A DNA stretch of 64,000 bases from Mytilus edulis (taxonomy: Eukaryota), in NCBI RefSeq assembly GCF_963676685.1, contig NC_092347.1, positions 73,718,001 to 73,782,000 of the forward strand, read 5' to 3'. Positions 3,001 through 9,000 of this stretch are shown here, in pieces (position 1 is the stretch's first letter; every line of letters starts with the position of its first letter). Made by a program: the position numbers.

Positions 3001-6000
3001 TCCTAAAAGCCTATGTGATTGAATTCTTAATCAGTATTTGTTTTCCTTTCAGTTATTGAATCAATTAGAAGGTTCTGGTCCAGCTCCTGCTGAGAAAAGT
3101 AAAATAGATTCATTACCTTCAATTAAAATAACACCAAAGTTAGTAGGTAAGTTAATTGTATCCTAAAGAATAGGACATATTTACCTAAAAGTCTCCACTT
3201 TTTGTGTTTCTTAGATTTAAGTCACATATCAGCTGAATGCACCTGAAAATCTCTCTGGAGTGTAAGACTTATATTCTGCCCCTACCCAATGTGACTTTAC
3301 CTTTTTACAGAAGTAAAATTTATGTTTTCTTTCTTAGGCCAATTAAAATTAATTGATAGATTTTCATCCCCGCCCGCCCCTCTGAAATGTTCCCGCCCCG
3401 ATTTTTTTTTATTTTTGAAAAAAATTACGATTTCCGGATTTTATTCATTTCCGTTACCGGTAACCGTCGATATTTCGTTTCGTGTAAAACCTCCTGTTTC
3501 AAATTTCGGTTTTCGTATATCTTAGAGTATTCTAACTGAATGATTAAGTCGATATATTCTGCTGATCTATGATGACAACTTCATTACCGATAATAAAGAT
3601 TGATTACGAGAAGGGCGTGAAATATTTAAGTAACGAGTAATACGCTGTGTCCAAGAACGCAAATCGCCGTACACTATACATGACACAAATGATAGATCCG
3701 TGTTTTACTTGCTCGGATACTAATATTAAAAACACATATTTTTGTATCTATTCTATATTTTCAAAACTACATATGTACAGTTATCCTACAAATCTACAAC
3801 TCTCAGTTTATGGCTACACGTGCTGATCTTATCTATCAAGTCATGAATATTTATTAGCTATGTAGGCGTGTCAAAATCGTATCATACGCGATAATGACCA
3901 GCCAGTACACTGTAATGATTTCATTAACCAGTATTAAAAAGATAAACATAACACAAATGTTTGTGAGTAAAACACCTTGGATTTATTTTATTTATACAAT
4001 GACTTAGTGTCAAGAAATTTGGACTGTGAAGGAAACCCAAAAGCGTCAGAATCGTGGAACACATTTGACTGGAATAAAGAAATTGACACAAGCATCAACT
4101 TTTTAGATTAATGACCGTATTTTGAGTTAAAAAAATCGACAAACATACGCATTTTTAATTTATTAATTTACAGCAAGCTCTTAGCAATAAATTTAGCCAT
4201 GCCTTTCGTTTTTTGTAAAAAAAACCAAAAAAAACAAACAGCAAACATCCTCTGTCCCAATACCCACGATAGAGTCTTTAAACAACTTTATGTTCTACAT
4301 TGTAATTATATTTGAATCTTGCATATTAAGGACCAACCCTATTATTTCAACACTGTTTGAGTTTTCATTTTATTCTGTACTTATCGTACTCATCTTGCAT
4401 ACCAATGTATTTGCTTCATTTTATTAGGACAACAAAACATAGCTTAGAAAGCAAAATACATTTGATGTAGGTAGTCCAACTGAAGAGAGCATTTCTTCAC
4501 ATTTCTGCTGTTTACTACAAAAATAGGTTTCTAAAGCGGCAAATACATGTAGAACAGTGGTTGCCAATCAGAGATAAATATTTACGAATTTGAAAAAGCA
4601 GCACCAGCATATAGAGTATATGTGTCTCAATATTGATACGTTACTCTAGAGCTAGCTCAAAGTACGCCGCTGATTTTGCTGAACGAGGAATACTGCTTTC
4701 TCAAAAGTTGCTAAGACAGGGCTATGAATCATCAAATTAAGGTCATCACTTAATTTTATGGTTGCCATCATGAGCTGATTGGCCATTATGACAAAAGTGT
4801 GTCAGAAATCATATCTCAGTGATATTCTTCCTCAGTCATAACAATTAACCTTCCATCATTACCGAACTGAACAAAGAAATAACATGACGGGTGCCGTATA
4901 CGGTGAAGGAAATGCTTACCTTTCCGGAGCACCTGATTTCATTCCTGGTTTTTAGTGGAGTTTGTGTTGTTTCCTTAACTTATTATTTGTAACTGTTGAT
5001 GTAAATGTCTTTCGGTTTTAAGAGTCTTTGGTTACTCCTTGGTTTTGATTGTTATGGTCTTATACACAATACCTTATTGATGTATTTATATGATATAAGC
5101 TTATTATTACACTTGCATATATGATTGAATAACACGCGACAAGAAGGTTTCATATGAAATAAAATTTAAAAAATAAAATCCTCCCACCCGCCCCATTTTT
5201 TTCAAAAATTTGGATGAAAATCTACTAATTAATGTTAGTTGGCCTTATCCATCAAACATTTTAGATTCTGCACATTGATGAAGTGAATTTGTTTTGTAAT
5301 TTGTTCCTGAATATGCTTGAAAATGTGTTACTAAGCATCATACAGTCAATCAATCTTAATTTTAGCTTTAAAATTGTTATCTGAATGTGTTAACACTCTA
5401 AACAAATATGGATTTATAGGTACAAGAAGATGTCAAAAGAATAAAAAGAAAAATTTGCTTGTCGTTGTGTTGACCCTGCAACAGGAATTGTCATGAAGTT
5501 TTGAAATCTTGTGGTTACTTTCAGATAAATAGTTGATATAAAATTCCTTTCATTTCAGATAAAGGTGCACATTGTGCTATATGTTTTGAAGATTTTAGTT
5601 TAGATGAAGAAGTAAAACGGTTACCCTGTGATCACTATTATCATAATGACTGTATAGTTAAATGGTTAGAAATGGTAAGTAAAACGGTTACCCTGTGATC
5701 ATTATTATCATAATGACTGTATAGTTAAATGGTTAGAAATGGTAAGTAAAACGGTAACCCTGTGATCACTATTATCATAATGACTGTATAGTTAAATGGT
5801 TAGAAATGGTAAGTAAAACAGTTACCCTGTGATCACTATTATCATAATGACTGTATAGTTAAATGGTTAGAAATGGTAAGTAAAACAGTTACCCTGTGAT
5901 CACTATTATCATAATGATTGTATAGTTAAATGGTTAGAAATGGTAAGTAAAACGGTTACCCTGTGATCACTAATATCATAATGACTGTATAGTTAAATGG

Positions 6001-9000
6001 TTAGAAATGGTAAGTAAAACGGCTACCCTGTGATCACTATTATCATAATGACTGTATAGTTAAATGGTTAGAAATGGTAAGTAAAACGGTTACCCTGTGA
6101 TCACTATTATCATAATGACTGTATAGTTAAATGGTTAGAAATGGTAAGTAAAACGGTTACCCTGTGATCACTATTATCATAATGACTGTATAGTTAAATG
6201 GTTAGAAATGGTAAGTAAAACGGCTACCCTGTGATCACTATTATCATAATGACTGTATAGTTAAATGGTTAGAAATGGTAAGTAAAACGGTTACCCTGTG
6301 ATCACTATTATCATAATGACTGTATAGTTAAATGGTTAGAAATGGTAAGTAAAACGGTTACCCTGTGATCACTATTATCATAATGACTGTATAGTTAAAT
6401 GGTTAGAAATGGTAAGTAAAACGGTTACCCTGTGATCACTATTATCATAATGACTGTATAGTTAAATGGTTAGAAATGGTAAGTAAAACGGTTACCCTGT
6501 GATCACTATTATCATAATGACTGTATAGTTAAATGGTTAGAAATGGTAAGTAAAACGGTAACCCTGTGATCACTATTATCATAATGACTGTATAGTTAAA
6601 TGGTTAGAAATGGTAAGTAAAACGGTTACCCTGTGATCACTATTATCAGAATGACTGTATAGTTAAATGGTTAGAAATGGTAAGTAAAACGGTTACCCTG
6701 TGATCACTATTATCAGAATGACTGTATAGTGAAATGGTTAGAAATGGTAAGTAAAACGGTTACCCTGTGATCACTATTATCATAATGACTGTATAGTGAA
6801 ATGGTTAGAAATGGTAAGTAAAACGGCTACCCTGTGATCACTATTATCATAATGACTGTATAGTTAAATGGTTAGAAATGGTAAGTAAAACGGCAACCCT
6901 GTGATCACTATTATCATAATGACTGTATAGTTAAATGGTTAGAAATGGTAAGTAAAACGGTTACCCTGTGATCACTATTATCATAATGACTGTATAGTTA
7001 AATGGTTAGAAATGGTAAGTAAAACGGTTACCCTGTGATCACTATTATCATAATGATTGTATAGTTAAATGGTTAGAAATGGTAAGTAAAACGGTTACCC
7101 TGTGATCACTATTATCATAATGACTGTATAGTTAAATGGTTAGAAATGGTAAGTAAAACGGTTACCCTGTGATCACTATTATCATAATGACTGTATAGTT
7201 AAATGGTTAGAAATGGTAAGTTTTCTCAAGAAACTATAAAACATTTATTGTAAATTTTGAATTGTTACTTTTAAGCATTTTACCCAAACATGGGGTTCCA
7301 CAAAAAATTTAAGCCAGCCTTACACTTTTTTCCAATTCCTTTCTAATCTTGTGGTTTCTTCAATAAAGACATTTGTACCAAAGAAGGATAATCATAAAAG
7401 TGGATTAAGTGTTAGGAATTGGGTCACAACATCAGAGGGTATTTTGATTGTCATTCTGTTTACTGACTGTTATTCTGGCAGTTAAGTAATATTATATTGA
7501 TAACCTTTAAGATTTGATATTAATTTTCTGCTATTTAGAAGAGAAGGCACTTTTTGTCAAGCCTTCGACTTTAGTCGAAAAAGCGAGACTAAGCGATCCT
7601 TCATTCCGTCGGCCTTGTCTTCGGCGTCCACAAATATTCACTCTGTGGTTAAAGTTTTTGAAATTTTAATAACTTCCTTAAAATATACTGGATTTCTACC
7701 AAACTTGGACTGAAGCTTGTTTATGATCATAGATAGTATCCAGAAGTAAATTTTGTAAAAATAAAATTCCATTTTTTCTGTATTTTACTTATAAATGGAC
7801 TTAGTTTTTTCTGCAGGGAAACATTACATTCACTATGTGGTTAAAGTTTTTAAAATTTTAATAAATTTCTTAAACTATCCTGGGTTTGTACCAAACTTGG
7901 ACAGAAGCTTGTTTAAGGTCATATGATAGTATCCAGAAGTATATTTGGTAAAAAAATGAATCCATTTTTTCCGTATTTTACTTTTAAATGGACATAGATT
8001 TTCTGCCAGGAAACAACACATTCACTCTGTGGTTAAATTTTTTTTAAATTTTAATAGCTTTCAATATACTATTTCAAATTTGTACCAAACTTGGACAGAA
8101 GCTTGCTTATGATCAAAAGTTAGTATCAAGAAGTAAATTTTGTTAATATTTTGTACCTGTGTATCTGTATTTTACTTATAAATGGACTTAGTTTTTTTCT
8201 TCTAGTTAACATTACATAGTCTGCAGTTAAAGTTTTTAAAACATATATTAGATTCATAAACTATCCTGATTTTTTTCCAAACTTGGACAGAAGCTTCTTA
8301 CAATCAAAAGATAGTATCAAGAGAAATATTTTTTTCCTCATTTTTGTTGAGCCTGCGATTTACAGCAAAAGTAGGCGAGACACTGGATTCAGTGGAACCC
8401 TTACAAATTTTTTATTTATCCCAACCACCCATAACAGAAAATTTCATTCTACTTAAAATTCTTACAAGATTCTAAATAAATATGCAACCACAAACAATTT
8501 ATCAAAAGTGCCTCCCCTTTTAGTAAAATAATCGTTTTGAATTTAGCCAATTTTGATATTATTTTGACAAACTAAATTTACTAAAATTTATTATTTTCTA
8601 ACCAGCAAAAATTGTTAGACGACTTGAGAAGGATCAATGTCAGGTACTTGTTTGCCTGTCTGGTTAACATGCTAGTTCATTTTATATACAGAAATTTATT
8701 GAAAAAAAAACAGATTTGTCCAGTTTTGGAAGTCCTAACCAAACAAAAAAATGTTACACTTTTGTCAGATCAGAACAATCATGTCAGCTTGTTTGATGCA
8801 TATACAATTATTAAAGTAGAGTCAATTTCATATTAAGATTCTTAATTACTTATCAATTATTCCTTTGAAGAAGTGTCCCAGCAATACTAAAGAAGTGGTA
8901 ACTAATCTCTTTATTGGAATCTTTCTAACAGCTTTTTCTTCAAAGGGCTGATTTAAATGCCCTTCCATGGGGGCATTATGTTTTTTAGTCTGTGCATCCA

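What the first reader, a model, noticed from the sequence alone, without database searches (positions are those of the whole stretch)
5610..7221. 24 tandem copies of a splice donor inside the RING domain of RNF126/115; only the first is productive
Seen: the last 65 nt of the RING exon plus GT are amplified 24 times, with AAGT microhomology shared between the exon (gaAGTa) and the donor (gtAAGT). Every copy recreates ATG|GTAAGT with the same exonic context; the substitutions I noticed fall elsewhere in the unit. The native intron follows only the last copy. Reading past donor 1 gives VSKTVTL-TGA (stop 5696-5698), removing the final CPVC zinc ligands. Donor 2 (after 5741) leaves the stop 43 nt from the last junction, inside the usual 50-55-nt NMD boundary, so it could yield a RING-dead protein; donors 3-24 predict NMD targets. 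Inference: either strong selection of the exon-proximal donor among identical competitors, or a copy-number-dependent dial on E3 ligase output.
Basis: partly seen in the sequence, partly recalled or inferred. Interest (0 to 1): 0.72.

Follow-up and report, generated by a model that had tools for sequence, protein, structure and literature searches.

The report
Minisatellite repeating a RING-exon splice donor
A 67-base piece spanning the end of a RING-finger exon and its splice donor has been copied 24 times in a row inside an invertebrate E3-ligase gene, an arrangement already described in several human genes, where normally only the first donor or the first few are used.

Summary
Window 5610-7221 holds 24.1 head-to-tail copies of a 67-nt unit (98% matches, 0% indels). 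The unit is the last 65 nt of a RING-H2 exon (5559-5674) plus GT. All 24 window copies of ATGGTAAGT lie in the array. Only donor 1 keeps the frame into the CPVC exon at 10308. Every other donor meets TGA 5696-5698. The exon's best solved relative is the RNF126 RING (2.5e-11).

The untouched donors are not evidence of selection (P=0.29). Donor 1 is not structurally privileged. Nothing here supports a copy-number dial.

This is a known kind of feature. Minisatellites whose first unit spans an exon-intron boundary are described for human F7, IFI6, CBS, LMNB2 and PDGF, and the most upstream donor is used exclusively or mainly (PMC1557585).

My best reading is a young array born in place by a 4-nt (AAGT) microhomology duplication, now behaving as intron with 23 silent pseudo-donors. 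The main rival is a loss-of-function allele, because identical strong donors splice to the downstream site in vitro (PMC3413131). No RNA, population or raw-read data could be checked.

The parts
1024..1102 (+). Upstream coding exon of the same gene (...NFIPMMHGNPGDYAWGVHGLDNIVTQ). It is flanked by cag| and |gtaaaa and ends in phase 0.
   Evidence: Open frame; junctions read. That this motif belongs to the RNF126/115 family is recalled, not tested.
3053..3146 (+). Coding exon (LLNQLEGSGPAPAEKSKIDSLPSIKITPKLV + 1 nt). Acceptor tttcctttcag|, donor tag|GTAAGT. It ends in phase 1.
   Evidence: No Pfam family matched this exon alone (0 families).
5559..5674 (+). RING exon, 116 nt, carrying zinc ligands 1-6 (CAIC...CDH..H..C). 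It ends ATG| in phase 0.
   Evidence: Pfam zf-RING_2 E=2.3e-11. Best solved relative is the RNF126 RING, 2ECT, E=2.5e-11. Junctions read.
5610..7221 (+). The array: 24 copies of a 67-nt unit (65 nt of exon plus GT) plus the 4-nt AAGT that begins the unique intron.
5675..5680 (+). Donor 1 (ATG|GTAAGT), the only donor that keeps the frame into the 10308 exon.
   Evidence: frame shift 0, exon length 116 nt.
5696..5698 (+). TGA met by any transcript that reads past donor 1 (MVSKTVTL*). The product would lack zinc ligands 7 and 8.
5742..7221 (+). Donors 2-24, with GT at 5742 + 67n up to 7216. Each is ATG|GTAAGT and all are out of frame or lie behind the stop.
   Evidence: 24 of 24 ATGGTAAGT in the array; table of exon lengths 183 to 1657 nt.
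7218..7221 (+). AAGT at intron positions +3 to +6 of the last donor. It is identical to unit bases 1-4 (5610-5613) and is the microhomology at the duplication boundary.
   Evidence: right-side match 4 nt, left side 0 nt.
7222..10307 (+). Unique remainder of the intron. The intron from donor 1 is 4633 nt, of which 1541 nt are the 23 extra units. It ends ctttatttcttttacag|.
   Evidence: pyrimidine fraction 0.75 before the acceptor.
10308..10451 (+). Last coding exon seen (HGTCPVCRKDLNG...DDDS, stop TGA 10449-10451). It carries zinc ligands 7 and 8.
   Evidence: The 2ECT alignment shows CPVCRK after the matched stretch.

Best explanation
This is a young minisatellite born in place that repeats the exon-intron junction of the RING exon of an RNF126/115-like E3 ligase gene. 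The likely history is as follows. A 67-bp segment (65 nt of exon plus GT) was duplicated in tandem at a 4-nt AAGT microhomology. The pair then grew to 24 units by slippage or unequal exchange. Because the first unit keeps the whole exon and an intact donor, the other 23 units simply lengthen the intron by 1541 nt. In the RNA, donor 1 is chosen because it lies 116 nt from the upstream acceptor, by exon definition or by the 5'-to-3' 'oriented scanning' shown for F7. Donors 2-24 stay silent as pseudo-sites, with perhaps a small leak to donors 2 or 3. The gene still makes a full RING protein, and the array is neutral or slightly costly. Shown here: the anatomy, the frames and the microhomology. 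Inferred: how the array arose, and which donor is used.
For: Anatomy. In-place origin: the unit is the exon's own sequence and occurs nowhere else in the window (24 of 24 matches in the array). The boundary has a 4-nt microhomology on one side only. Youth and minisatellite dynamics: 17 of 1608 cells differ, there are no indels, and variants are shared by neighbouring units (10A in units 4-5, 35G in 16-17, 50G in 17-18, 12C in 19-20) and by distant units (12C in 7, 10, 19, 20; 13A in 3, 15, 20; 41T in 5, 22). The gene shows no decay in the window: four open exons, GT-AG junctions, acceptor pyrimidine fractions of 0.70-0.80, and all eight zinc ligands in C-X2-C-X14-C-X-H-X2-H-X2-C-X10-C-X2-C spacing when read across the two exons. 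Rescue inside the array is unlikely: the AGs in the unit have pyrimidine fractions of 0.35-0.55. Precedent: in human F7 (37-bp unit, 5-9 copies) only the most upstream of the identical donors is used, although every pseudo-site is functional when the ones before it are inactivated. LMNB2 (10-15 units of 100 bp) and PDGF (16-18 units of 81 bp) use only the authentic donor. IFI6 (25 pseudo-sites) and CBS (15-20 monomers) also use the next two (PMC1557585; abstract, introduction passages and the whole Discussion). The window is rich in minisatellites (44 TRF rows), so one seeded at a junction by chance is plausible.
Against: There are no RNA data, so donor use is inferred entirely from mammalian precedents. 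The donors here are strong: they match 8 of 9 positions of the MAG|GTRAGT consensus (the consensus is recalled) and have a perfect GTAAGT. F7's donor is weak (UGG/gugggu, consensus value 74). In F7 minigenes, perfect-consensus pseudo-sites downstream were used at about 70-90%. [quoted passage not shown] Nothing in local RNA structure favours donor 1: its unpaired probability is 0.0066, against 0.0025-0.089 for the others. The copy number in the assembly could not be checked against reads.
Confidence: 0.6

Rival explanations
1. It is a loss-of-function or strongly hypomorphic allele. All 24 strong donors bind U1, the spliceosome pairs a downstream donor with the 10308 acceptor or skips the exon, and the mRNA carries the TGA at 5696-5698. 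The result is either decay or a protein missing zinc ligands 7 and 8. The allele would persist because it is heterozygous, recent, or covered by a paralogue.
For: Identical strong donors go to the downstream site in vitro (PMC3413131 passages). Perfect-consensus pseudo-sites competed in F7 minigenes at 70-90% use. All donors other than the first are unproductive. Skipping the 116-nt exon also shifts the frame (116 is not a multiple of 3). The array is young, so a dead gene would not yet show decay elsewhere.
Against: In all five natural human cases listed in PMC1557585 the authentic donor is used, exclusively or mainly. Donors 4-24 would create internal exons of 317-1657 nt; I recall that such sizes are disfavoured under exon definition. 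The rest of the gene in the window is intact.
Confidence: 0.2
2. It is an assembly artefact, or the copy number is wrong. The true locus would have one or a few units, and the assembler inflated or mis-joined the array.
For: Long, nearly identical tandem arrays are a known weak point of assemblies (general knowledge). No reads were available to me.
Against: There are 12 distinct unit types with an ordered pattern of shared substitutions. Register is perfect at 67 nt with 0% indels over 1.6 kb. The array is joined cleanly to unique sequence on both sides. This looks like a real variant-repeat map and not like noise. It does not prove the exact count of 24.
Confidence: 0.1
3. It is a selected regulator. 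Copy number, or regulated leakage to donors 2 and beyond, tunes the output of the E3 ligase, either through unproductive splicing coupled to decay or through a RING-dead competitor protein.
For: Donor 2 would leave the stop only 43 nt before the junction. IFI6 and CBS do use their second and third donors. A CBS 31-bp VNTR is linked to reduced enzyme activity, but I saw only the title of Lievers 2001, in a reference list. Tandem-repeat length is widely associated with splicing in humans: 9537 such repeats are reported in the abstract of PMC10078293.
Against: There is no sign of constraint on the donors (P=0.29). [quoted passage not shown] Near-identity of the units fits youth and needs no function to explain it. 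No comparative or population data exist here.
Confidence: 0.1

Closest known systems
Human F7 intron-7 37-bp VNTR (Borensztajn et al. 2006, PMC1557585)
   Same: The first monomer spans the exon-intron boundary. The authentic donor is followed by identical donors. Using a later donor keeps intron sequence in the mRNA. The donors compete for a single acceptor.
   Different: F7's unit is 37 bp with only 4 exonic bases, 5-9 copies, and a weak donor (UGG/gugggu, consensus value 74). Here the unit is 67 bp with 65 exonic bases, there are 24 copies, the donor is a strong GTAAGT, the host is an invertebrate, and the array sits inside a RING domain. Donor use is shown experimentally for F7 and is not known here.
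Human IFI6 (6-16) and CBS intron-13 junction minisatellites (as summarised in PMC1557585)
   Same: Large arrays (25 pseudo-sites in IFI6; 15-20 monomers in CBS) repeat the donor. They show that the second and third donors can be used constitutively.
   Different: I could not read the primary papers (Turri 1995 is not held), so unit lengths and frames are not compared. Here every non-first donor meets a stop, so leakage cannot give a variant protein with a complete RING.
Human LMNB2 (10-15 units of 100 bp) and PDGF intron 4 (16-18 units of 81 bp) (as summarised in PMC1557585)
   Same: Unit size and copy number are close to this array, and the junction is repeated. Only the authentic donor is reported to be used.
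   Different: I know these only from the summary passage. Their donor strengths are unknown to me, and they are vertebrate genes.
Duplicated strong 5' splice sites in model pre-mRNAs (Hodson et al. 2012, PMC3413131)
   Same: Identical high-affinity donors compete for one acceptor.
   Different: These are two sites on short single-intron substrates in nuclear extract, and the outcome is the downstream site. That is the opposite of what this gene needs to stay functional.
Intron gain by tandem genomic duplication (PMC3443670 passages; Hellsten et al. 2011, PMC3265369, abstract only)
   Same: A tandem duplication inside a gene, involving splice-site sequence, is absorbed by splicing without changing the protein.
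   Different: That model makes a new intron from a duplicated AGGT that serves as both donor and acceptor. Here no new intron arises. An existing intron is lengthened and the unit has no credible acceptor.

Membership tests
Junction-reiterating minisatellite (F7 IVS7 type) | Head-to-tail array of a unit of tens of bases | tested here: met
   Period 67, 24.1 copies, 98% matches; 24 copies in register.
Junction-reiterating minisatellite (F7 IVS7 type) | The first unit spans an exon-intron boundary and contains the authentic donor | tested here: met
   Unit 1 is exon bases 5610-5674 plus GT 5675-5676. The exon is identified by Pfam and PDB matches.
Junction-reiterating minisatellite (F7 IVS7 type) | The donor sequence is repeated identically in the following units | tested here: met
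   24 of 24 ATGGTAAGT in the window are in the array. No variant falls in unit positions 63-67 or 1-4.
Junction-reiterating minisatellite (F7 IVS7 type) | The most upstream donor is used, and later ones are silent or minor | not testable with these tools
   No transcript data. Structure gives donor 1 no advantage.
Junction-reiterating minisatellite (F7 IVS7 type) | Copy number varies among individuals (VNTR) | not testable with these tools
   Only one sequence is available. The variant pattern fits unit turnover, but polymorphism is not shown.
RNF126/RNF115-type RING-H2 E3 ligase | RING-H2 with eight zinc ligands in canonical spacing | tested here: met
   zf-RING_2 E=2.3e-11 on the 5561-5674 exon alone. 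Ligands 7 and 8 (CPVC) are in the 10308 exon. Spacing was read by eye across the two exons. The joined protein was not searched.
RNF126/RNF115-type RING-H2 E3 ligase | Closest to RNF126/115 among RING proteins | tested here: inconclusive
   The best solved relative is the RNF126 RING, 2ECT, at 2.5e-11; the next is 3.9e-09. This rests on a 38-residue exon and on solved structures only.
RNF126/RNF115-type RING-H2 E3 ligase | N-terminal zinc-ribbon domain (feature recalled) | not tested
   The 5' part of the gene lies outside the window. The first exon seen starts at 1024.
Intron gain by tandem duplication | A new intron is formed between duplicated splice-site sequences | tested here: not met
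   No new intron arises. The AGs in the unit have pyrimidine fractions of 0.35-0.55, against 0.70-0.80 for the gene's real acceptors.

The most novel reading that the evidence does not exclude
The 24 near-consensus donors are not inert. Either upstream-first donor choice holds here for strong sites and outside mammals, which would make this a natural 24-fold competition test of the scanning model against the proximity model. Or regulated leakage to donor 2 and beyond, scaling with copy number, sets the level of active E3 ligase through unproductive splicing or a RING-dead competitor protein.
Probability: 0.1. Interest if true: 0.55.

Novelty: new member of a known kind. Interest (0 to 1): 0.3.

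Why it matters
The array adds an invertebrate case with strong donors and high copy number to a small set of human genes in which a minisatellite repeats a splice donor. Two published rules for identical competing donors give opposite forecasts here. Upstream-first was shown in cells for F7. Downstream-first was shown in vitro for strong sites. Only the upstream-first outcome leaves a working RING domain, so a simple RT-PCR on this gene would tell the two rules apart in a new lineage. For genome annotation, it is a warning that gene predictors and splice-aware aligners may pick the wrong copy of the donor and report a truncated protein. Beyond that it is most likely a neutral or mildly harmful structural variant.

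Tried and rejected
1. Donor conservation as a sign of selection: rejected. P=0.29 that 8 variant positions miss a 9-nt core.
2. RNA structure exposing donor 1 or hiding the others: rejected. Unpaired probability is 0.0066 for donor 1, within the 0.0025-0.089 range of donors 2-24. No inverted repeat involves the array; the single pair found in 5000-10400 lies at 8751-9758.
3. A rescuing acceptor inside the unit: rejected, because the polypyrimidine context is weak.
4. A second copy of the RING exon or of the unit elsewhere in the window: none found (24 of 24 matches are in the array).
5. A known RNA family: 0 matches at gathering score in the whole window.
6. A transposon or imported satellite as the source of the unit: rejected, because the unit is the exon's own sequence.
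7. Intron gain by tandem duplication: a defining feature is not met (see the membership test).
8. Coding potential of the array: no open frame of 30 residues or more lies within it on the + strand, only the 5537-5698 frame that runs in from the exon and ends at the TGA. There are only two 37-residue frames on the - strand.
9. Literature for the same thing in this gene: 'RNF126' plus 'minisatellite' gave 0 papers. The natural junction-repeating cases I found through searches were all human genes. These are exact-word searches of open-access text only.
10. Papers I wanted but that are not held: Gao & Lynch 2009 and Turri et al. 1995.
The genome collection on hand holds bacteria and archaea only, so it was not used. 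Orthologues, intron-position conservation, and presence of the array in other individuals or species therefore stayed unchecked. No supplementary files were consulted.
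Full report
WHAT IS THERE

The window has no N and is AT-rich: GC is 0.29-0.37 in 30 of the 32 2-kb windows (base counts). Its other genes look like an invertebrate's. There is a gene with UBD and ubiquitin domains at 34429-35790 (-), a B-box protein with a propeller-like C-terminal part at 53819-55461 (-), and two glycine/serine-rich repeat proteins with no Pfam family. 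I do not take the contig for human, and I did not try to name the organism.

Tandem Repeats Finder reports 5610-7221 as 24.1 copies of a 67-nt unit with 98% matches, 0% indels and score 3105. That is the best of 44 rows. A script placed 24 full copies in perfect register (5610-7217). There are 17 differing cells at 8 unit positions and 12 distinct unit types. 10 of the 24 copies equal the consensus, including copy 1. A 30-nt core of the unit occurs 24 times, all in the array, against 0 expected from shuffles.

THE GENE

On the + strand there are four exon-like open frames with GT-AG junctions:
- 1024-1102 (…GNPGDYAWGVHGLDNIVTQ)
- 3053-3146 (LLNQLEGSGPAPAEKSKIDSLPSIKITPKLV)
- 5559-5674 (…KGAHCAICFEDFSLDEEVKRLPCDHYYHNDCIVKWLEM)
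- 10308-10451 (HGTCPVCRKDLNG… then stop)

I searched the exons one at a time. The joined, spliced protein was not searched or folded. The 5561-5674 exon alone matches Pfam zf-RING_2 at 2.3e-11. Its best solved relative is the RNF126 RING (2ECT) at 2.5e-11, with the next hit at 3.9e-09. The 3053 exon alone matched no Pfam family, and the 10308 exon matched none at a meaningful score. Read across the two exons, the zinc ligands have the spacing C-X2-C-X14-C-X-H-X2-H-X2-C-X10-C-X2-C, so the intron separates ligand 6 from ligands 7 and 8. The 5' end of the gene lies outside the window.

ANATOMY OF THE ARRAY

The unit is the last 65 nt of the RING exon plus GT. The first four bases of the unit (AAGT, 5610-5613) are the same as intron positions +3 to +6 of the native donor (7218-7221). 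The match is exactly 4 nt on that side and 0 nt on the other. Every junction between units therefore recreates ATG|GTAAGT, and all 24 occurrences of that 9-mer in the window are in the array.

Only donor 1 (GT at 5675) is in frame with the 10308 exon. Any other donor leaves the TGA at 5696-5698 in the message, 43 nt before the junction for donor 2 and 110-1517 nt before it for donors 3-24. The exon would then be 183 to 1657 nt long instead of 116 nt. Skipping the 116-nt exon would also shift the frame. The intron from donor 1 is 4633 nt, of which 1541 nt are the 23 extra units.

WHAT THE SEQUENCE DOES NOT SHOW

That is true, but 8 variant positions missing a 9-nt core out of 67 has probability 0.29, so it is no evidence of constraint.
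- Local folding gives donor 1 an unpaired probability of 0.0066, inside the 0.0025-0.089 range of the other 23 donors. No inverted repeat touches the array.
- The three AGs in the unit have weak pyrimidine contexts (0.35-0.55, against 0.70-0.80 for the gene's real acceptors), so splicing within the array is unlikely.
- No Rfam family matches anywhere in the window.

Apart from position, donors 1-23 have the same sequence for 65 nt upstream and at least 9 nt downstream, the nearest variant lying at unit position 10. Donor 24 has the same upstream 65 nt and the same +1 to +6.

HOW IT AROSE (INFERENCE)

The unit is the exon's own sequence, the boundary carries a one-sided 4-nt microhomology, and no transposon is involved. 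This points to a microhomology-mediated tandem duplication in place, followed by expansion. The variant map shows shared substitutions in neighbouring units (10A in 4-5; 35G in 16-17; 50G in 17-18; 12C in 19-20) and in distant ones (12C in 7, 10, 19, 20; 13A in 3, 15, 20; 41T in 5, 22). That is what unit-by-unit turnover in a minisatellite produces. Together with the absence of indels, it argues against a pure assembly artefact, although the exact count of 24 is unverified.

COMPARISON WITH WHAT IS KNOWN

This arrangement is a described class. Borensztajn et al. 2006 (PMC1557585) cover it; I read the abstract, introduction passages, result passages and the whole Discussion.

- The human F7 intron-7 37-bp VNTR has a first monomer that spans the exon 7-intron 7 boundary and 5-9 copies.
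- Only the most upstream donor is used, although each pseudo-site works once those before it are inactivated.
- The authors propose 5'-to-3' oriented scanning.
- Exon skipping rose as the first usable donor moved further away.
- Only perfect-consensus pseudo-sites competed, at 70-90% use.

The same paper lists IFI6 (25 pseudo-sites, the first two also used), CBS intron 13 (15-20 monomers, two pseudo-sites used), LMNB2 (10-15 units of 100 bp, authentic donor only) and PDGF intron 4 (16-18 units of 81 bp, authentic donor only). A later review repeats the F7 account (PMC6627357, one passage).

Against this stands Hodson et al. 2012 (PMC3413131, passages). [quoted passage not shown]

The donors here are strong, with a perfect GTAAGT and only position -2 off the consensus as I recall it. 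The two rules therefore make opposite forecasts, and only the upstream-first outcome gives a working RING.

The model of intron gain by tandem duplication (PMC3443670, passages; PMC3265369, abstract only) is related in spirit, but its defining feature is not met here, because no new intron is formed.

VERDICT

'Only the first donor is productive' follows from the sequence. 'Strong selection of the exon-proximal donor' is the expected behaviour by precedent but is untested here. The NMD forecasts use a rule that I recall as mammalian. The 'dial' has no support from this sequence, only weak indirect support from the literature (the title of Lievers 2001, seen in a reference list; the abstract of PMC10078293), and it is contradicted by the F7 minigene result.

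My probabilities for the four readings are:

| Reading | Probability |
|---|---|
| Near-neutral junction-repeating minisatellite with silent pseudo-donors | 0.6 |
| Loss-of-function or hypomorphic allele | 0.2 |
| Assembly or copy-number artefact | 0.1 |
| Selected regulator | 0.1 |

I rate it a new member of a known kind, with modest interest (0.3). The specific value of this locus is as a natural 24-donor, strong-site test of donor choice outside mammals.

LIMITS

No transcript, read, population or orthologue data could be consulted. The literature searches are exact-word searches of open-access text. 'RNF126' plus 'minisatellite' returned 0 papers. Two primary papers were not held. No supplementary files were seen.

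Noticed in passing
window 7636-8322: A second tandem array (192-nt unit, 3.6 copies, 78% matches) lies in the same intron, about 415 nt downstream of the 67-nt array. It is older and more diverged, and its unit is not derived from the exon.
   Followed up: no
window 42130-43632 (-) and 48624-50546 (+): There are two long open frames (500 and 640 residues) made of glycine/serine-rich repeats, on opposite strands and pointing away from each other. Both end in a similar ...GGKWGGSSGKW... tail. Neither matches any Pfam family. They look like a divergent pair of paralogous structural-protein genes.
   Followed up: partly
window 14650-18750 and 25750-28260: Blocks of satellite-like repeats (units of about 126-161 nt) occur in inverted orientation about 7-13 kb apart. 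There are 36 inverted pairs of up to 237 nt at 74-95% complementarity. The blocks bracket open frames at 23714-24892. This could be the two ends of a large mobile element, or an inverted segmental duplication.
   Followed up: partly
window 53819-55461 (-): Two overlapping open frames encode a B-box zinc finger (ANCHR-like B-box, 1.4e-06) followed by a propeller-like region with weak matches below the curated cut-offs. This is a TRIM-like gene with no RING seen in these frames.
   Followed up: partly
window 34429-35790 (-): Two exon-like frames carry a ubiquitin-binding domain (UBD, 1e-26) and a ubiquitin-family domain (1.5e-14). This is a UBTD-like gene.
   Followed up: partly
window 39033-39749 (-): A 238-residue open frame contains a ...RYLDDIL... 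motif, which I recall as typical of reverse transcriptases. It matched no Pfam family at E<=0.001. It is probably a decayed retroelement fragment.
   Followed up: partly
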